Below, one piece after another: positions 3,257 to 36,336 of a stretch of 36,383 bases of DNA. The first letter of the stretch is position 1. Each line of letters opens with the position of its first letter. The notes below the pieces were generated by a model that was given only the letters and a program-made list of their open reading frames with translations, had not been told where the DNA came from and ran no database searches. This stretch comes from an uncultured Gammaproteobacteria bacterium (GTDB taxonomy: Bacteria; Pseudomonadota; Gammaproteobacteria; GCA-001735895): positions 1-36,383 of the forward strand of contig CALJQI010000063.1 of NCBI GenBank assembly GCA_937980285.1. Direction: 5' to 3'. Made by a program: the position numbers and the translations under genes.

Positions 3257-3823
3257 CTAGGTTACACCGCGGTCGATCAGGTACTTGCTGTACTGCTTGT
3301 CGGTGCCGTTGATGTGATTGATGAGCCAGTTGCGCAGAAAATCGATCGCGTTTTGCATCGCGGTATCCGGATTTTTCTGGTACTCGACCAGCACCTGCTC
3401 CACCCTGGCGATCATCAGCTCATGCTCGGCTCTGTGCGTGGTAAAATCCGGGTAATCATTCTTTTCCATCAGGTCTTCTTCGTAACTGAAGTGGGTTTTG
3501 GTGTAATCCACCAGCGCATCCAGCGCCTCTTGCTCGTAATCCGCGCCGGCCGAATAATCAATCGCGGTCTGCAGGCTGTTGATCAGGCCGATCAGCTTCT
3601 TGTGCTGGCGGTCGATGGAATCGATGCCGACGCTGTATTCATCCTTCCATTCGACATACTGCCTGGCGGTCAACTTGCGGTGCAGGAACGGCAATAACAC
3701 CACCAGCGCCACCAGTAACCAGGTCAAAGGATTCGACGGGCTGCTGACAAGCCCCAAAATGGCCGCCGTGATCAACGTCAGGATCAATATGGCGACACCA
3801 AACATTCGTACTTTGTTGTTCAT
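3257..3823 (-). CDS. membrane-anchored bacteriohemerythrin (hemerythrin-like metal-binding domain)
   Basis: Di-iron ligand motifs: DRQHKKL, HFSYEE, HRAEHEL and WLINHINGTDKQY. Two N-terminal hydrophobic segments. Start set to the ATG at 3823 (MNNKVRMFG) with GAGG upstream. Confidence 0.85.
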   Translation of the reverse strand: MNNKVRMFGVAILILTLITAAILGLVSSPSNPLTWLLVALVVLLPFLHRKLTARQYVEWKDEYSVGIDSIDRQHKKLIGLINSLQTAIDYSAGADYEQEALDALVDYTKTHFSYEEDLMEKNDYPDFTTHRAEHELMIARVEQVLVEYQKNPDTAMQNAIDFLRNWLINHINGTDKQYSKYLIDRGVT

Positions 3824-6745: not shown

Positions 6746-7272
6746 TCAAGGACACCGCCTTCGAATGCGCGCTGATCGAGATCATCAGCAAGGGCCTGCC
6801 GCTGGTGAGCCATCCCTACGCGGCTATTGCCGAACAGCTCGGCAGCAGCGAGGCCGAGGTCATCGACGGCATCCAGCGCATTATGATGCGCGGCGACCTG
6901 AAGCGGTTCGGCGTCGTCGTCAGGCATCGCCAGCTGGGCTATCGCGCCAACGGCATGGTGGTATGGGATATTCCTGACGATCGCGTCAAGGAAGTCGGTC
7001 ACTGCCTCGGCCAGTACAGCTTCGTAACCCTTTGCTATCAGCGCCCGCGCCGGCTTCCGGACTGGCGTTACAACCTGTTCAGCATGATTCACGGCCAGGA
7101 TCGCGACGCGGTCGCCGAACAGGTAGAGCTGGTCGTCGAACAATGCGGCCTGCAGGGCATCGATCACCAGATACTGTTCAGCCGTCGTTGCTTCAAGCAG
7201 CGCGGCGCCAGTTACAGCCGCCGGCAGTCCGGCGAGTTCGGCAGCCGCCGTGGAACCGCCCTCAGTGGATGA
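6736..7272 (+). CDS. nirL: siroheme decarboxylase subunit NirL
   Basis: IISKGLPLVSHPYAAIA module and a PDWRYNLFSMIHG motif paralogous to NirD/G/H. Overlaps neighbours on both sides. Confidence 0.8.
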   Translation: MDMIKDTAFECALIEIISKGLPLVSHPYAAIAEQLGSSEAEVIDGIQRIMMRGDLKRFGVVVRHRQLGYRANGMVVWDIPDDRVKEVGHCLGQYSFVTLCYQRPRRLPDWRYNLFSMIHGQDRDAVAEQVELVVEQCGLQGIDHQILFSRRCFKQRGASYSRRQSGEFGSRRGTALSG

Positions 7273-8242
7273 GCTGGCGCGACAGTTTCTCAATCGCTAC
7301 CAGGGCGGTTTTCCGATTGCCGAACAGCCTTTCGTCGACATCGCCGAAGCGCTCGAGACCGATGTCGAAACGCTGATCGACAGCATCCGGCAACTGCTGC
7401 AGGACGGCACGCTAAGCCGCTTCGGTCCGCTTTACGATGCGGCCAGCATGGGCGGCAGTATTACGCTGGCCGCCCTGTCGGTACCGCAGGAGCGCTTCGA
7501 CGAGGTGGCGGAAATGGTAAACGCCATGCCCGAGGTGGCGCATAATTACCAGCGCGAGCACGAACTCAACATGTGGTTTGTCATCGCCACCGAGTCCCCT
7601 GAACTGCTGCAACAGGCGATCGGCCAGATCGAGCAAACCGCCAACCTGCCGGTTTACAACTTCCCCAAGCTGCAGACTTTTTATCTCGGCCTGCAGATAT
7701 CGCTGGACCAGGCGGGCAATGTCGGCACGCAACCGATTCCGGGCCCGCTGAAACAGGGCGGCATGATCATCGATGAACTCGATCGCAGCATCGTACGGGC
7801 GACCCAGGAAGGCTTGCCGGTACAGAAAGCGCCCTATACCGAGATCGCCTCGATATGCGGCTGCGACACCGACACCGTGCTGCGGCGCATGCGGCGCATG
7901 ATCGACCGCGGCGTGATCCGGCGCATCGGCGCGATTCCGAACCATTATCGCCTGGGGCTGCACGGCAACGGCATGTCGGTGTGGGACGTCAATGACGACA
8001 AGCTGGCGGAACTCGGCGCGCGCGTCGGCCGCCTGGATTTTGTCAGCCACTGCTATGAACGCCCGCGCCACCTGCCGCGCTGGCCCTATAACCTGTTTGC
8101 AATGGTGCACGGCCACGACCGCGACGAAGTAACCGACAAACTGAGCGAAATAGCCAGCCTGCTAGGCTCCGACTGCCGGCAACACGATGTGCTTTTCAGC
8201 ACCCGAATACTCAAGAAAACCGGATTGAGGTTAGTAGACTAA
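7250..8242 (+). CDS. nirGH: fused siroheme decarboxylase subunits NirG-NirH
   Basis: 330 aa carrying two tandem NirD-like modules: FLNRYQGGFPIAEQPF...HNYQREHELNMWFVI, then IVRATQEGLPVQKAPY...PRWPYNLFAMVHG. Start is GTG 7250, or possibly GTG 7265. Confidence 0.8.
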   Translation: MEPPSVDELARQFLNRYQGGFPIAEQPFVDIAEALETDVETLIDSIRQLLQDGTLSRFGPLYDAASMGGSITLAALSVPQERFDEVAEMVNAMPEVAHNYQREHELNMWFVIATESPELLQQAIGQIEQTANLPVYNFPKLQTFYLGLQISLDQAGNVGTQPIPGPLKQGGMIIDELDRSIVRATQEGLPVQKAPYTEIASICGCDTDTVLRRMRRMIDRGVIRRIGAIPNHYRLGLHGNGMSVWDVNDDKLAELGARVGRLDFVSHCYERPRHLPRWPYNLFAMVHGHDRDEVTDKLSEIASLLGSDCRQHDVLFSTRILKKTGLRLVD

Positions 8243-33600: not shown

Positions 33601-34209
33601 TTAATCGAGCAGCAACTGCCCTATTGCAAGCAACTTCTTCTTGTCTCGCGGCGTTAACTGCGCATACAGCGTCAGCAGGTCCTGCATGTCTTCGGCCAGG
33701 TAAGGCCCCGCTTCGGCGCCCGCGACGGGCGCGTCTATCCAGCCGCGGCGCTGGCCGAGAAACTTTTCGCAGCGCCTGGCCATAAGATCGGGGATTTTGG
33801 CGTAGGGATTATTGCGAAATTTACGCATGCGTTCGAGCGGTAATTTTATCGCCGCCAGGTACTCGGGCAGGATGCCTTCTTTCTCGGCCCGATCGAGCGC
33901 ATCGATGAATTTGCGGTAGCGATTGGAATGCACTTCCGCCGGCCGCGGTGCGCCGATGCCATAGGTCAGCCAGCCCGGATCGATGTTGAGCGCCTCACAG
34001 AATTGCAGCGTCTCATCGACGCCCGGCGTCGACAACCCGGTTTCATAATTGTGGATGCGTCCGGCGCTCCAGCCGAGGCGCTGGCTGAGTTCTCGGCTGT
34101 TGGTTTCCTTTGCCATCAGGCGTGCCTGGCGAATGCGCTTGCCGATCTTGAGGTAGAGTGGATTGCGCGCGGATTTGTCTTTGATCAGAGCTGGTTTTTT
34201 AACTTGCAT
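33601..34209 (-). CDS. XRE-family helix-turn-helix transcriptional regulator with a C-terminal domain of unknown function
   Basis: HTH region IGKRIRQARLMAKETNSRELSQRLGWSAGRIHNYETGLSTPGVDETLQFCEAL. Start set to ATG 34209. Confidence 0.8.
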   Translation of the reverse strand: MQVKKPALIKDKSARNPLYLKIGKRIRQARLMAKETNSRELSQRLGWSAGRIHNYETGLSTPGVDETLQFCEALNIDPGWLTYGIGAPRPAEVHSNRYRKFIDALDRAEKEGILPEYLAAIKLPLERMRKFRNNPYAKIPDLMARRCEKFLGQRRGWIDAPVAGAEAGPYLAEDMQDLLTLYAQLTPRDKKKLLAIGQLLLD

Positions 34210-34227
34210 GCACGCGAGTTTAACAAA

Positions 34228-34279
34228 ATCCAAATTTCTTGGATATATTTCTTGCAATATCCAAATTTTTGGCTATTAT
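34228..34279 (+). promoter_or_regulatory. sigma70-type rightward promoter flanked and overlapped by two related operator repeats
   Basis: -35 TTGCAA (34252-34257), a 16-nt spacer, and -10 TATTAT (34274-34279). Operator-like ATCCAA-ATTTC-TTGGAT (34228-34244) and ATCCAA-ATTT-TTGGCT (34259-34274), the second inside the spacer. The 10-mer ATCCAAATTT recurs 31 nt apart. Confidence 0.55.
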
Positions 34280-34331
34280 ACGCTGCCACTGAAATCAGGC
34301 GACAGTGCGCCACATTAAACTGGAAAGAGAA

Positions 34332-34487
34332 ATGTTTTCATTACAGCCATCGCAAATATCCACCTACCGGACAGGTTATACCAGCCTGACGGGCGGCTGT
34401 GCGCATGACTGGAACAGAAAGCAACCCAGTTTTGTGGCGCTTGATCTCCGCCCCGAAGGCAATCTGAAAGGAATTGATATGCGGTAA
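34332..34487 (+). CDS. possible 51-aa leader / Cro-position small ORF
   Basis: ATG preceded by GGAAAGAG. The TAA stop ends 1 nt before the hairpin at 34489. Codon third positions are not GC-biased as in neighbouring genes, so coding status is doubtful. Confidence 0.25.
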   Translation: MFSLQPSQISTYRTGYTSLTGGCAHDWNRKQPSFVALDLRPEGNLKGIDMR

Positions 34488-34548
34488 TCCTCCGTCTTCA
34501 TACGGGAGGTTGCTGCAACGCAGACACCTCCCGAGTATCTTCCGAGAA

Positions 34549-34594
34549 CCCCGGTTGGTGTCTTCAAAACGCATCACCGGGGTTTTTGCGTTTT
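34549..34594 (+). terminator. intrinsic terminator
   Basis: 11-bp stem CCCCGGT(T)GGTG / CATCACCGGGG with an 11-nt loop, followed by TTTTTGCGTTTT. Confidence 0.7.
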
Positions 34595-34615
34595 ACGACT
34601 TAAAAAAAAGCCCCG

Positions 34616-34652
34616 CGCTGACCTCGTTCGGCAGCGTGTAGCTCTTTAACAA
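34616..34652 (+). promoter_or_regulatory. rrn-type antitermination signature: boxB-like hairpin + boxA
   Basis: Hairpin 34616-34620/34632-34636, plus 34622-34623/34630-34631. Three nt later comes AGCTCTTTAACAA (34640-34652), 12/13 identical to the E. coli rrn boxA TGCTCTTTAACAA. Confidence 0.6.
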
Positions 34653-34659
34653 TCTGGAA

Positions 34660-35116
34660 TACTGAATTGGCCGTCGCAAGGAGCGATGGCCGGTAAGCCG
34701 CTCCCGTGGACCCGAGGGGGCGGCTGTATGGCGCATCGGGTCAGCGGGATGGGTGAGCCGGAGACCCGAAAGCGCAGCCGGCAGCGCCAGAGAATTTCGT
34801 GGTCTGGCACGGATAAATTGCGCAAGCAATGAAAGGGGGAAATCCTTCAGTACCCCGCCCGGCAACGGGTCGACCCAGAAAAACCTCGTCCCCTCGCCTT
34901 CAGCTCGGCTGGAGGTAGCGATCAACACTCGCCAGGGATAAGGGGGAGCGCTTTCAGTCCGAGCTTCCCAGACAAGGGCGGAGCGCAGTTCCAGGGGCGC
35001 GGGGTATCGCAGGATAGCCCGCATCCCGAAGAGCACCTGGCGATCGAACAGAAAATTCGAACACCATTTTTAACAGGATTCCTGCTCACGCGGGAATGAC
35101 TGACTGGATCCTTTTT
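34660..35116 (+). ncRNA. candidate large structured RNA / structured rtcB leader (unclassified)
   Basis: No credible ORF. At least 9 hand-foldable helices with strand-specific G-U pairs. Two GCAA tetraloops. The 19-nt motif AAGGGGGA-N5-TTCAGT occurs twice. Three TTCAG-containing loops at 53-54-nt spacing. Ends are inferred, not observed. Confidence 0.45.
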
Positions 35117-35145
35117 CATTAAACTAAAGCCACAGGAGGTTAATC

Positions 35146-36336
35146 ATGATCAAGATGAAAATGACCAAGGGAAAGTCGCCGGTACTGGTGTGGACCGACG
35201 ACGTTGAATCATCCGCGCATGATCAACTGGCACGCATGGCTAACCTTTCGATCGTGCACAGCCACATCGCGGTGATGCCCGACGTCCACATGGGCAAGGG
35301 CGCCACCGTCGGCTCGGTCATCCCGACGCGGGAAGCGATCATCCCGGCAGCGGTCGGAGTCGATATTGGCTGCGGTATGTGTGCGCTGCGAACCTCGCTG
35401 CATGCCGACCAACTGCCGGAATCACTGCGTCAGCTGCGTAACCAGATCGAACGCGACGTTCCGGTCGGTTTCGACATGCACAGCAACCGCCGTGCACGCT
35501 TCGAGGCGGCTGCCGCGGTCGAACCCGGACTGAAGCAGATCCTGGATCGACATCCCGGCATCGCTTCGAAATCACGCAACAAGGATGCCTGGGCACGCCA
35601 GATCGGTACCCTGGGTGGCGGCAACCACTTCATCGAGCTGTGCCTGGACGAAGAAGACCGCGTCTGGGTCATGCTGCATTCCGGCAGCCGCGGCATCGGT
35701 AACAGAATCGGCCAGTACTTCATCGAAAAGGCAAAGGAGGTGATCGCTAAAACCGACGTTCAACTGCCGGACAGGGATCTGGCTTACCTGGTCGAGGGAA
35801 GCGGCCTGTTCGCCGACTACTGGCAGGCGCTGACCTGGGCGCAGGAGTACGCGTCCCGCAACCGGCAGGAAATGCTGGATATCGTGCTCGAGGCGCTAGC
35901 AAGGCATTTGCCGCCGTTCGAGCTGGATGAAGCAGCGATCAACTGCCACCACAACTACGCGGCCAGGGAAGTCCATGACGGCACCGAAATCTACGTTACC
36001 CGCAAGGGCGCGATTCGTGCCGGCGCCGGAGAGCTGGGAATCATTCCCGGCTCGATGGGGGCGAGGTCTTACATCGTACGCGGCAAGGGCAACGCGAAAT
36101 CGTTCTGTTCCTGCGCGCACGGTGCCGGACGGCGCATGTCGCGTAGCGCCGCAAGGAAGCACTTTACCCGGGACGATCTGCTGGAGCAGACCGAGGGCGT
36201 CGAATGCCGCAAGGATAAGGGCGTCATCGATGAAATCCCGGGGGCCTACAAGGACATCGACCAGGTCATGGAAAACCAGGTCGACCTGGTCGAAACCGTG
36301 CATACCCTGAAGCAGGTGCTGTGCGTCAAGGGCTGA
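35146..36336 (+). CDS. rtcB: RNA 3'-phosphate/5'-OH ligase RtcB
   Basis: AGGAGG SD (35134-35139). Motifs MPDVHMGKG, GVDIGCGM, GTLGGGNHFIE, HSGSRGIG, PGSMG and CAHGAGR (nucleophilic His). Confidence 0.92.
   Translation: MIKMKMTKGKSPVLVWTDDVESSAHDQLARMANLSIVHSHIAVMPDVHMGKGATVGSVIPTREAIIPAAVGVDIGCGMCALRTSLHADQLPESLRQLRNQIERDVPVGFDMHSNRRARFEAAAAVEPGLKQILDRHPGIASKSRNKDAWARQIGTLGGGNHFIELCLDEEDRVWVMLHSGSRGIGNRIGQYFIEKAKEVIAKTDVQLPDRDLAYLVEGSGLFADYWQALTWAQEYASRNRQEMLDIVLEALARHLPPFELDEAAINCHHNYAAREVHDGTEIYVTRKGAIRAGAGELGIIPGSMGARSYIVRGKGNAKSFCSCAHGAGRRMSRSAARKHFTRDDLLEQTEGVECRKDKGVIDEIPGAYKDIDQVMENQVDLVETVHTLKQVLCVKG

What the first reader, a model, noticed from the sequence alone, without database searches (positions are those of the whole stretch)
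34660..35116. Candidate novel ~450-nt structured RNA encoded directly upstream of the RNA ligase gene rtcB
**No coding signal.** Between the terminator at 34549-34594 and the rtcB SD there is no sense ORF longer than 62 aa.

**Dense helices folded by hand:**
- 34669-34677/34683-34691: 9 bp, AAGGA loop.
- 34697-34705/34716-34724: 9 bp.
- 34729-34734/34784-34789, enclosing 34737-34742/34763-34768.
- 34817-34821/34826-34830: GCAA tetraloop.
- 34835-34838/34853-34856.
- 34857-34861/34866-34870: GCAA tetraloop.
- 34943-34949/34963-34969.
- 34999-35003/35018-35022, stacked on 35005-35008/35013-35016.

**Strand specificity.** G-U pairs at 34673-34687, 34702-34719, 34857-34870 and 34946-34966 would be C-A mismatches on the opposite strand. 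The fold is therefore specific to the rtcB-sense strand.

**Repeated motifs.** The 19-nt motif AAGGGGGA-N5-TTCAGT occurs twice (34833-34851 and 34940-34958). Each time the G-run forms a 5' stem arm and TTCAGT sits in a 13-14-nt loop. A third hairpin loop (34899-34906) carries CCTTCAG. The three TTCAG pentamers are 53 and 54 nt apart, which looks like a reiterated protein- or RNA-docking module.

**Precedent and comparison.** RtcB acts on RNA, and Y-RNA-like genes (yrlA/yrlB) lie just upstream of rtcBA in Salmonella, so an RtcB-linked RNA has precedent. By eye this sequence does not resemble Y RNA/tRNA-like modules, RNase P, tmRNA, 6S or SRP RNA.
Basis: partly seen in the sequence, partly recalled or inferred. 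Interest (0 to 1): 0.8.

Follow-up and report, generated by a model that had tools for sequence, protein, structure and literature searches.

The report
Half a GOLLD RNA before rtcB
The stretch upstream of rtcB does encode a large, conserved, folded non-coding RNA, but it is related to the front half of the known giant bacterial RNA GOLLD, which here occurs without its usual back half inside a repressor-controlled tRNA and RNA-repair operon.

Summary
Window ~34611-35043 (+) is non-coding and conserved in about 21 distinct homologous loci. It folds into two covarying domains: about 91-93% of cells are paired, against 38-46% in slid controls, and 19-27 pairs change on both sides. The TTCAG "docking repeats" are not conserved.

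The interpretation needs revising. The RNA is tied more closely to a divergent XRE repressor gene than to rtcB. That unit also holds a leader ORF, a terminator and an rrn-type boxA, and in nearly all relatives a tRNA array that the window has lost. Only 2 of 80 RtcB loci carry the RNA.

In four related loci the same RNA sits 17 nt upstream of a match to Rfam GOLLD, a model that covers only GOLLD's 3' domain. My covariance model also hits 13-20 nt upstream of that domain in two GOLLD-bearing phages. The window RNA is therefore a homologue of the GOLLD 5' domain that lacks the family-defining 3' domain.

This is a new variant of a known kind, in a new setting: chromosomal, with RtcB, HNH and stress-type tRNA arrays. 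Its function remains inferred.

The parts
33601..34257 (-). XRE-family HTH repressor gene, divergent from the operon. Homologues are ~202 aa, so the true start is probably near 34209.
   Evidence: Pfam HTH_19/HTH_3. 177 homologues at 60-93% identity. It lies next to the RNA in every locus long enough to show it.
34228..34279 (+). Operon promoter with two operator-like palindromes: ATCCAA-N5-TTGGAT (34228-44), -35 TTGCAA (34252-57), ATCCAA-N4-TTGGCT (34259-74) and -10 TATTAT (34274-79).
   Evidence: Promoter scan. The block is conserved across 15 loci. Repeats confirmed.
34305..34487 (+). Leader small ORF: 60 aa from the GTG at 34305, 51 aa from the first ATG at 34332. It ends in Gly-Met-Arg-stop.
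   Evidence: The frame is open (49-61 aa from the first ATG) in 14 of 15 homologues despite many indels. In the 15th (L119) the frame is open but the first in-frame ATG lies only 2 codons before the stop. The stop lies 15-20 nt before a conserved hairpin. No family match.
34503..34594 (+). Conserved hairpin (34503-34533) followed by a 14-bp intrinsic terminator with a U-run (34549-34594). Together with the leader ORF this looks like an attenuator.
   Evidence: Sequence. Conserved in the alignment. The promoter/terminator scan missed it because its loop exceeds 8 nt.
34614..34638 (+). boxB-like hairpin P0 just before boxA.
   Evidence: 7-bp helix, 91.6% paired, 3 pairs with changes on both sides.
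34641..34651 (+). rrn-type boxA, GCTCTTTAACA. 34640-34667 is also the leader arm of a 28-nt complementarity with a trailer 53 nt past the rtcB stop, which lies outside the window at coordinates 36389-36416.
   Evidence: The only match in the window to GYTCTTTAANA (consensus from PMC5725501). Present at the same place in the RNA-bearing loci; L105 and L106 carry a variant. Trailer complement found in 12 loci, including the window's own contig.
34668..34877 (+). 5' subdomain of the RNA:
- P1 34669-77/83-91
- P2 34697-705/716-724
- pseudoknot 34709-15/36-42
- P3 34731-34/72-75
- P4 34750-54/64-68
- pseudoknot 34757-61/78-82
- P5 34798-801/808-811
- GNRA hairpin P6 34817-21/26-30
- P7 34835-38/53-56
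- GNRA hairpin P8 34857-61/66-70
   Evidence: Alignment A3 (18 sequences): 90.8% of cells paired against 38-41% when slid; 27 pairs change on both sides against 10-14; 0 of 500 shuffles reach the observed value. The subdomain is variable: partly absent in L010 and L105, and P2-P4 is replaced by a tRNA-Gly in L110.
34878..35043 (+). 3' subdomain, the universal core:
- junction CCUCGUCCCC
- H1 34897-904/908-915
- H2 34917-21/29-33
- conserved AGGGAUAAGGGGGAG
- H3 34948-52/82-86
- H4 34957-60/76-79
- H5 34963-65/70-73
- H6 34988-91/35031-34
- H7 34994-97/35024-27
- H8 34999-35008/35013-22
   Evidence: A2: 92.7% paired against 39-45% slid, 19 pairs with changes on both sides. Model R1 gives 173.9 bits in the window and finds about 21 loci. 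A4: 25 pairs with changes on both sides. R1 hits directly upstream of GOLLD 3' domains.
35044..35145 (+). Non-conserved spacer ending in the rtcB Shine-Dalgarno sequence (AGGAGG, 35134-35139). It occupies the place where relatives carry 2-26 tRNA genes.
   Evidence: Alignment with L001 and L090 breaks down after 35043 and resumes at the SD. No tRNA in the window. tRNA arrays in relatives.
35146..36336 (+). rtcB, the RNA 3'-phosphate ligase gene, last gene of the unit in the window.
   Evidence: Pfam RtcB, E 7.5e-133. NCBIfam RtcB-family matches fall below the equivalog cut-offs.

Best explanation
Window ~34611-35043 (+) encodes a ~430-nt structured non-coding RNA. It is a homologue of the variable 5' ('cap') domain of GOLLD RNA and lacks GOLLD's conserved 3' domain.

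**The transcription unit.** The RNA is the first non-coding gene of a chromosomal operon read divergently from an XRE repressor gene. The order is: repressor-controlled promoter; leader ORF; hairpin plus terminator; boxB-like hairpin and boxA; this RNA; a tRNA array (lost in the window's lineage); rtcB; a sequence complementary to the leader; and often an HNH nuclease gene.

**Shown.**
- The RNA's conservation, fold and strand.
- Its fusion to GOLLD 3' domains in relatives.
- The operon architecture and its conserved signals.

**Inferred.**
- On de-repression, and on read-through of the leader terminator, a Nus-modified RNA polymerase transcribes the long untranslated stretch.
- The RNA is released as a discrete stable molecule. 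Release would occur by tRNA-processing enzymes, by a terminator that follows the RNA in some loci, or by cleavage of the leader-trailer duplex.
- It acts in trans, together with the co-expressed tRNAs and RtcB, in a response to damaged translation. It is not a cis-regulator of rtcB.
- By analogy with the GOLLD cap, it probably self-associates. How it works beyond that is unknown.
For: **Structure**
- 91-93% of cells paired against 38-46% in slid controls; 19-27 pairs change on both sides; 0 of 500 shuffles reach the observed value.

**Family and linkage**
- The RNA is present next to the XRE gene in every sufficiently long locus from nhmmer and the covariance model.
- It is present in only 2 of 80 RtcB loci.

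**GOLLD link**
- RF02032 matches begin 17 nt after the R1 match in four related loci:
  - L106: 152.8 bits
  - L123: 154.8 bits
  - L105: 144.3 bits
  - L110: 82.4 bits
- R1 also hits 20 nt upstream of RF02032 in phage phiCbK (E 7e-7) and 13 nt upstream in phage Bajun (E 2e-7). nhmmer gives E 3e-10 against phiCbK.
- RF02032 and the published alignment cover only the 3' end.
- GOLLD is described as a conserved 3' domain (P14-P27) plus a variable 5' domain, with tRNAs embedded in the linker.
- No GOLLD 3' domain was found in the window, its contig L126, or seven 5'-only loci.

**Trans-acting rather than cis-acting**
- In L123 the RNA lies between tRNA genes inside a 20-tRNA array.
- The distance to rtcB varies from about 100 nt to about 3 kb.
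- L115-L117 have no rtcB adjacent.

**Operon signals**
- boxA.
- Operators and promoter.
- Leader ORF.
- Leader-trailer complementarity.

**Functional parallel**
- In Anabaena, silent tRNA arrays, rtcB and an HNH gene are co-repressed and induced by translational stress.
Against: - There are no expression data, so transcript ends, processing and stability are all inferred.
- The matches to phage GOLLD 5' regions are modest (24-26 bits). A third phage, CcrBL9, gave only a weak, misplaced hit. I could not map my helices onto the published P1-P13.
- The family-defining 3' domain is absent, so GOLLD-like assembly is an extrapolation.
- Some loci (L081, L089, L102, L090) have a terminator-like hairpin right after the RNA. 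That would also fit a regulatory leader.
- XRE/rtcB loci without the RNA exist (L120, L122, L125), so the RNA is dispensable for the system.
- The window itself lacks both tRNAs and HNH.
Confidence: 0.72

Rival explanations
1. A cis-acting leader, either a riboswitch-like sensor or an attenuator. The folded RNA senses a signal, for example damaged or uncharged tRNA or an alarmone, and controls read-through into the tRNA array and rtcB.
For: - In the window the RNA lies in the 5' untranslated region of rtcB.
- Several relatives have a terminator-like hairpin plus U-run immediately after the RNA (L081, L089, L102, L090; alignment).
- The operon already uses one leader ORF with a terminator, and boxA.
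Against: - The terminator after the RNA is not universal (L001, L085).
- In L123 the RNA is embedded between tRNA genes.
- In four loci it continues into a GOLLD 3' domain.
- Its distance to rtcB varies from about 100 nt to about 3 kb, and rtcB can be absent.
- Its size and two-domain architecture exceed those of known riboswitches (own knowledge).
Confidence: 0.15
2. One reading: a new RNA class that is a dedicated partner or substrate of RtcB, analogous to the Y-RNA-like yrlA/yrlB next to rtcBA in Salmonella.
For: - Adjacent to rtcB in the window, and in the same operon as rtcB in most relatives.
- No Rfam match in the window.
Against: - Absent from 78 of the 80 closest RtcB loci.
- Present without an adjacent rtcB in L115-L117.
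- Homologous to the GOLLD 5' domain.
- No YrlA or Y_RNA match in the window, and only sub-threshold tRNA-driven YrlA hits in relatives.
- No Ro-like gene in the gene tables.
Confidence: 0.08
3. A decaying remnant. The 5' half would be left over after a full GOLLD lost its 3' domain, and in the window also its tRNAs, and would no longer be functional.
For: - The family shows a reduction series: full GOLLD (L105, L106, L110, L123), then 5'-only, then minimal (L010), then none (L120, L122, L125).
- The window lineage also lost the tRNA array.
Against: - The 5'-only form is the majority and has diverged to about 75% identity while keeping its helices through compensatory changes. That indicates purifying selection on the structure.
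- Conserved single-stranded motifs are retained.
Confidence: 0.05

Closest known systems
GOLLD RNA (Rfam RF02032; Weinberg et al. 2009; cryo-EM structure in PMC12286853)
   Same: - Homologous to the region directly 5' of the conserved GOLLD 3' domain. It is fused to that domain in L105, L106, L110 and L123 and matched in phages phiCbK and Bajun.
- About 420-430 nt, the size of the env-38 5' region (nt 1-420).
- Ornate fold with GNRA loops and pseudoknots.
- Sits in or next to tRNA arrays, and tRNAs can be embedded within it.
- Has a conserved part and a variable part.
   Different: - Lacks the family-defining 3' domain (P14-P27), so Rfam does not detect it.
- Not in a phage or prophage. It lies in a syntenic chromosomal operon with an XRE repressor, leader ORF, boxA, rtcB and HNH.
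- The ~100-nt extension of the H2 loop found in the full-length relatives is missing.
- The window copy has no tRNAs nearby.
Silent long tRNA arrays (L-arrays) and the TrcR regulon of Anabaena (PMC8421152, PMC10272220)
   Same: - A transcriptional repressor with operators over the promoter controls a tRNA array together with rtcB, an HNH endonuclease gene and a Band_7/slipin gene.
- The system is proposed to respond to translational stress.
   Different: - A different phylum. Relatedness of the repressors was not tested.
- In Anabaena the genes are dispersed, whereas here they form one unit.
- Neither paper, in the passages returned by my term searches, mentions a large structured RNA, boxA or a leader ORF.
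rRNA operon leaders (boxB-boxA antitermination and the leader-trailer helix)
   Same: - Perfect gammaproteobacterial boxA preceded by a hairpin.
- A long untranslated transcript containing tRNAs.
- A 19-28-nt leader segment complementary to a trailer that brackets the unit.
   Different: - No rRNA is present.
- The bracketed unit contains an mRNA (rtcB).
- Mismatches in the leader-trailer duplex are A-C as often as G-U, so selection at the RNA level is not shown.
ROOL RNA
   Same: A large ornate RNA of unknown function that lies near tRNA islands and forms cages.
   Different: No sequence or model match. Its 5' and 3' parts are intertwined rather than forming separable domains.
YrlA/YrlB Y-RNA-like RNAs next to rtcBA
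   Same: A non-coding RNA gene in an RtcB operon.
   Different: No model match in the window, no Ro-like gene, about four times larger, and no tRNA-like module detected.

Membership tests
GOLLD RNA | Conserved 3' domain (P14-P27), which is what Rfam RF02032 models | tested here: not met
   No RF02032 match in the window at the gathering score, at E<=10 in 34400-35250, or at E<=0.01 in its contig L126. None at E<=0.1 in seven other 5'-only loci. rtcB starts 103 nt after the RNA ends.
GOLLD RNA | Variable 5' domain lying directly upstream of the 3' domain | tested here: met
   The window RNA is homologous to the segment that ends 17 nt before RF02032 matches in L105, L106, L110 and L123 (R1 68-120 bits). 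R1 also hits 13-20 nt upstream of RF02032 in phiCbK and Bajun. Helix-by-helix mapping onto P1-P13 was not done.
GOLLD RNA | Located in or next to tRNA gene arrays, sometimes with an embedded tRNA | tested here: inconclusive
   Met for the family: 2-26 tRNAs downstream in nearly all relatives, the RNA lies inside the array in L123, and a tRNA is embedded in L110. Not met for the window itself, which has no tRNA gene.
GOLLD RNA | Encoded in phages or prophages | tested here: not met
   No similarity in 50,697 phage records or in plasmids. Two pattern scans of viral contigs returned 0 hits. The flanking genes (Pterin_4a, Na/H antiporter, SDR) are syntenic across relatives, as in a chromosome.
GOLLD RNA | Homo-oligomeric nanocage, with 5' domains forming the cap | not testable with these tools
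   Needs in vitro transcription followed by mass photometry or cryo-EM.
rrn-type Nus antitermination leader | boxA matching GYTCTTTAANA, preceded by a boxB-like hairpin | tested here: met
   Single match in the window at 34641-51, with 0.06 expected by chance. Same position in the homologous loci. The preceding hairpin covaries. NusB/NusE binding is not testable here.
Y RNA / YrlA | Match to the Y_RNA or YrlA model and an adjacent Ro (Rsr) gene | tested here: not met
   No such match in the window. No Ro-like family was seen among the neighbouring genes or in the gene tables.
Riboswitch / cis-regulatory leader | Fixed position upstream of the regulated gene, with an adjoining expression platform | tested here: not met
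   Distance to rtcB ranges from about 100 nt to about 3 kb. The RNA is embedded between tRNAs in L123, fused to a GOLLD 3' domain in four loci, and a terminator follows it only in some loci.
Protein-coding gene (intact or decayed) | A conserved reading frame or a family match | tested here: not met
   No Pfam match for the 62-aa sense ORF or the 147-aa antisense ORF. Indels of 1, 2, 4 and 5 nt occur between homologues. The antisense frame is broken in L001. Substitutions preserve base pairs.

The most novel reading that the evidence does not exclude
The GOLLD 5' domain is an autonomous functional module. Expressed alone with stress-induced tRNAs and RtcB from a repressor- and attenuator-controlled chromosomal operon, it would self-assemble, for example into a cap-like ring. 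It would then store or protect the array's tRNAs, or decoy tRNA- or ribosome-targeting nucleases. If so, this operon would supply the first functional setting for GOLLD: a response to damaged translation.
Probability: 0.25. Interest if true: 0.85.

Novelty: new variant of a known kind. Interest (0 to 1): 0.6.

Why it matters
GOLLD is among the largest bacterial non-coding RNAs. High-resolution cage structures now exist, yet its function has been unknown since its description in 2009.

- **The 5' domain can stand alone.** Here it persists under selection without the 3' domain that defines the family and that Rfam models. Such half-molecules are therefore invisible to standard annotation.
- **The genetic setting is interpretable.** The RNA lies in an XRE-repressed operon with a leader ORF and terminator, rrn-type boxA, tRNA arrays, the RNA ligase RtcB and an HNH nuclease. 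This matches the gene set of the translational-stress regulon described in Anabaena.
- **A testable hypothesis follows.** GOLLD-type RNAs may work with spare tRNAs and RNA repair.
- **Small constructs become possible.** A ~380-430-nt RNA, or a ~250-nt minimal form in Thiodiazotropha, is available for structural and genetic work.

No paper in the searchable library mentions both GOLLD and RtcB.

Tried and rejected
**Searches that found nothing**
- Rfam over the whole window at gathering score, and over the region at E<=10: only chance-level hits (sR49, CopA-like on the terminator hairpin, CRISPR-DR57).
- tRNA/tmRNA scan of the window.
- blastn against phages and plasmids.
- Two pattern scans of viral contigs. 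The first pattern was too strict at CCAGGGA.

**The RtcB-anchored search**
- I first expected the RNA in RtcB loci generally. nhmmer and the covariance model found it in only 2 of the 80 loci, so I switched to the XRE protein as the anchor.

**Structure prediction**
- RNAalifold on the MAFFT alignment gave a partly implausible long-range structure, including a CCCC 34611-14/GGGG 34942-45 pairing. I replaced it with helices derived from column-pair statistics and then tested them.
- Pairing of the invariant CCUCGUCCCC with AGGGAUAAGGGGGAG was considered. It cannot be tested because both segments are invariant, and the changes in L105 and L110 gave no consistent compensation.

**Ideas considered and set aside**
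- rRNA-fragment mimicry, RNase P RNA, tmRNA, 6S, SRP and HEARO/omega RNA (because of the HNH gene): no Rfam support.
- A promoter between the terminator and boxA: that segment is not conserved and has no -35/-10.
- The leader-trailer repeats as transposon ends: no transposase and no target-site duplication seen, but a DNA-level role cannot be excluded.

**Not achieved**
- The first test of the 34730-34/34785-89 pairing was off by one register and was repeated correctly.
- The Morgado 2020 GOLLD paper is not held.
Full report
**1. What is in the window.**
- Between a conserved intrinsic terminator (34549-34594) and the rtcB start (35146) there is no sense ORF longer than 62 aa.
- rtcB is confirmed (Pfam RtcB, E 7.5e-133).
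- The 147-aa antisense ORF and the 62-aa sense ORF have no Pfam match.
- The + strand folds better than its shuffles (z -3.83) and better than the - strand (z -2.76).
- Rfam 15 finds nothing at gathering score in the whole window, and only chance-level hits at E<=10 in 34400-35250.
- ARAGORN finds no tRNA or tmRNA in the window.

**2. The RNA is linked to the XRE unit, not to rtcB in general.**
- I fetched the 80 closest RtcB loci from one genome per species. nhmmer found a homologue of the region in only two of them: L001 (RtcB 89% identical) and, weakly, L010 from Ca. Thiodiazotropha endolucinida.
- In L001 the homologue is not adjacent to rtcB. Ten tRNA genes lie between them.
- Both loci share the window's upstream genes: a divergent XRE-family repressor, a small ORF and the terminator.
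- Using the XRE protein as anchor, I retrieved further loci (177 and 187 homologues; loci).
- Every XRE locus of the window's clade (XRE identity to the window's protein about 49-93%) that extends far enough upstream carries the RNA. That makes about 21 distinct loci. More distant XRE loci (L120, L122, L125) lack it; see section 5.
- In nearly all of them, 2 to 26 tRNA genes in the same orientation follow the RNA. The window and its nearest relative L090 have lost the array.
- L115-L117 have the RNA and five tRNAs but no rtcB next to them.
- L120, L122 and L125 have XRE and rtcB but no RNA.

**3. Structure and covariation: 3' subdomain (34878-35043).**
- On 13 sequences (A2), 92.7% of cells are paired against 39-45% when the 3' partners are slid.
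- 19 of 42 pairs change on both sides, against 3-7 in the slid controls. 0 of 500 shuffles reach the observed value.
- A covariance model, R1, realigned 24 matches. 25 pairs change on both sides.
- Helices: H1 34897-904/908-915; H2 34917-21/29-33; H3 34948-52/82-86; H4 34957-60/76-79; H5 about 34963-65/70-73; H6 34988-91/35031-34; H7 34994-97/35024-27; H8 34999-35008/35013-22.

**4. Structure and covariation: 5' subdomain (34605-34882).**
- On 18 sequences (A3), 90.8% of cells are paired against 38-41% slid. 27 pairs change on both sides, against 10-14.
- Supported elements are P1, P2, P5, the GNRA hairpins P6 and P8, and P7.
- Two pseudoknot pairings are also supported: 34709-15/34736-42, and 34757-61/34778-82 (G-C to A-U in four sequences).
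- Several G-U pairs are invariant, which fixes the strand as +.
The region 34729-34811 has competing pairings that the data cannot separate.
- The TTCAG repeats are peculiar to the window's closest relatives, and one of them is a stem strand.
- Conservation ends at about 35043. The remainder, up to the rtcB Shine-Dalgarno sequence, is a non-conserved spacer.

**5. Modularity.**
- The 3' subdomain, together with P5 and the junction CCUCGUCCCC, is universal.
- L010 has only boxA, one hairpin, P5 and the 3' subdomain, about 250 nt in all.
- L105 lacks P0 and P1. In L110 a tRNA-Gly replaces P2-P4.
- L081 and L102 carry a ~170-nt hairpin insertion.
- L105, L106 and L110 carry a ~100-nt extension in the H2 loop. 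The 254-nt R1 span in L123 implies a similar insertion.

**6. The link to GOLLD.**
- A gathering-score Rfam scan of related loci gave GOLLD (RF02032) matches in L123 (154.8 bits) and L106 (152.8 bits). Relaxed thresholds added L105 (144.3 bits) and L110 (82.4 bits).
- In all four loci the GOLLD match starts 17 nt after the end of the R1 match. In L105, L106 and L123 the GOLLD match encloses a tRNA gene; in L110 a partial tRNA match lies within it.
- RF02032 has 416 positions. The published alignment row is labelled 'GOLLD_env-38_3end'.
- The literature describes GOLLD as a universally conserved 3' domain (P14-P27) plus a less conserved 5' domain. In env-38 the 5' domain is nt 1-420 and forms the cap of the nanocage. 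tRNAs are sometimes embedded in the linker.
- In those four loci, therefore, the RNA family is by position the 5' domain of a full GOLLD.
- As an independent test, I fetched three phage loci listed in the published GOLLD alignment. With filters off, R1 hit:
  - phiCbK at 1867-2022 (E about 7e-7), 20 nt before its RF02032 match at 2043-2529 (165 bits);
  - Brevundimonas phage Bajun at 1417-1626 (E about 2e-7), 13 nt before its RF02032 match.
- These hits share motifs such as CAGUUCGAGGGGUGC...GUCCUGAAGAGCAGUCGAGUA. nhmmer also hits phiCbK (E 3e-10).
- The third phage, CcrBL9, gave only a weak, misplaced hit.
- R1 gave no comparable hit in about 780 kb of other loci.
- The window, its own contig L126, and L001, L010, L100, L102, L113, L115 and L119 have no GOLLD 3' domain even at relaxed thresholds.
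- The window RNA is thus a GOLLD 5'-domain homologue without the 3' domain.
- The H2 extension is seen in the four loci that keep the 3' domain and in none of the 5'-only loci examined.

**7. Operon signals around the RNA.**
- *boxA.* 34641-34651 is the only match in the window to the gammaproteobacterial boxA consensus GYTCTTTAANA (consensus from PMC5725501). It occupies the same place in the homologous loci and follows a covarying hairpin. In L123 boxA heads the array while the RNA lies two tRNAs further on. boxA therefore belongs to the operon leader.
- *Promoter.* It lies upstream, in the XRE-proximal intergenic region: -35 TTGCAA and -10 TATTAT, with two ATCCAA...TTGGAT palindromes, all conserved.
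- *Leader ORF.* The ORF ending at 34487 stays open (49-61 aa from the first ATG) in 14 of 15 homologues and ends in Gly-Met-Arg-stop in most. In the 15th (L119) the frame is open but lacks an early ATG. Its stop lies 15-20 nt before a conserved hairpin and the terminator. This resembles a translation-sensing attenuator, but that reading is inference only.
- *Leader-trailer complementarity.*
  - A 19-28-nt reverse complement of the leader (boxA plus the next ~16 nt) lies about 50 nt after the rtcB stop wherever the contig reaches that far, and 4.5 kb downstream of boxA, just upstream of the HNH gene, in L123, which has no rtcB (12 loci in all).
  - That includes the window's own contig, where it falls 6 nt beyond the window end.
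  - L123 uses a different sequence but keeps 14 bp of complementarity.
  - 92% of cells pair, against 20-43% when slid.
  - The mismatches are A-C as often as G-U. An rRNA-like leader-trailer helix and a DNA-level inverted repeat therefore remain equally possible.

**8. Functional setting.**
- Downstream genes in relatives are an HNH nuclease, an HslV-like protein, a Band_7 protein and a SEC-C peptide. The HNH protein gives weak PtuB and Cas9/IscB HNH-domain hits.
- In Anabaena, a silent 26-tRNA array, rtcB, an HNH gene and a slipin gene are co-repressed by TrcR and induced by translation inhibitors (PMC8421152, PMC10272220).
- The flanking genes here are syntenic chromosomal genes. No phage or plasmid similarity was found.
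- No paper in the searchable library mentions both GOLLD and RtcB.

**9. Verdict.**
- It is a new variant of a known kind: a stand-alone GOLLD 5' domain in a chromosomal, repressor-controlled tRNA/RtcB operon.
- Identity and architecture rest on tool results.
- Excision, action in trans and self-assembly are inferences from GOLLD structures and from the RNA's position within tRNA arrays.

Noticed in passing
window 34640-34667, and L126 5244-5271 (window coordinates 36389-36416, just past the window end): A 28-nt leader segment (boxA plus 16 nt) has a reverse complement 53 nt after the rtcB stop. The same holds in 12 loci, and L123 keeps the complementarity with a different sequence. It could be an rRNA-like leader-trailer helix or a DNA-level inverted repeat. 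Mismatches are A-C as often as G-U, so this is unresolved.
   Followed up: partly
window 34305-34594: The small ORF is open in 14 of 15 homologues (about 49-61 aa) and usually ends in Gly-Met-Arg-stop. Its stop lies 15-20 nt before a conserved hairpin (34503-33) and a strong terminator (34549-94). This looks like a leader-peptide attenuator that could sense impaired translation.
   Followed up: partly
window 34228-34279: Two operator-like palindromes, ATCCAA-N5-TTGGAT and ATCCAA-N4-TTGGCT, bracket or overlap the -35 TTGCAA and -10 TATTAT of the operon promoter. They are conserved across the family and are presumably XRE binding sites.
   Followed up: partly
L001 4683-5715; L100 2555-3670; L081, L101, L102, L113, L119: The tRNA arrays after the RNA largely share the order Asn-Lys-Tyr-His-Asp-Cys-Ile-Arg-Arg-Gln-Met-Leu. 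From my own knowledge, many of these are targets of known anticodon nucleases (PrrC: Lys; colicin E5: Tyr/His/Asn/Asp; colicin D: Arg). Enrichment was not tested statistically.
   Followed up: no
L110 851-926: A tRNA-Gly(GCC) gene occupies the place of the P2-P4 pseudoknotted subdomain of the RNA. This parallels the embedded tRNAs reported for GOLLD.
   Followed up: partly
L105 3537-3806, L106 3521-3775, L110 447-711, L123 4585-4838: A ~100-nt extension of the H2 loop is present in the four loci that also keep a GOLLD 3' domain and absent from all 5'-only loci examined. It contains ACGGGUGGUGCCG, which also occurs in the env-38 GOLLD 5' region. It may contact the 3' domain.
   Followed up: no
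L081 ~7160-7340 and L102 ~3635-3815 (shorter in L089): A long, near-perfect hairpin of about 170 nt is inserted between the conserved CCUCGUCCCC junction and helix H1.
   Followed up: no
L033 236-4394: A Verrucomicrobia MAG has a 24-tRNA array upstream of a related rtcB but no match to the RNA model. tRNA-array and rtcB linkage therefore extends beyond this RNA family.
   Followed up: no
L127 1216-1534 and L129 1936-2248: In phages phiCbK and Bajun a permuted tmRNA gene lies next to the GOLLD RNA.
   Followed up: no
window 35044-35100: The spacer that replaces the tRNA array contains the palindrome TTCGAA-N7-TTCGAA and the hairpin 35079-35098. The TTCGAA motifs may be remnants of tRNA T-arms left by deletion of the array.
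   Followed up: no
L001 7315-7902; L081 3689-4270; L113 474-1055: The HNH protein encoded after rtcB gives weak matches to PtuB (Septu/retron nuclease) and to the HNH domains of Cas9 and IscB. An HNH gene is likewise conserved next to the Anabaena tRNA arrays.
   Followed up: partly
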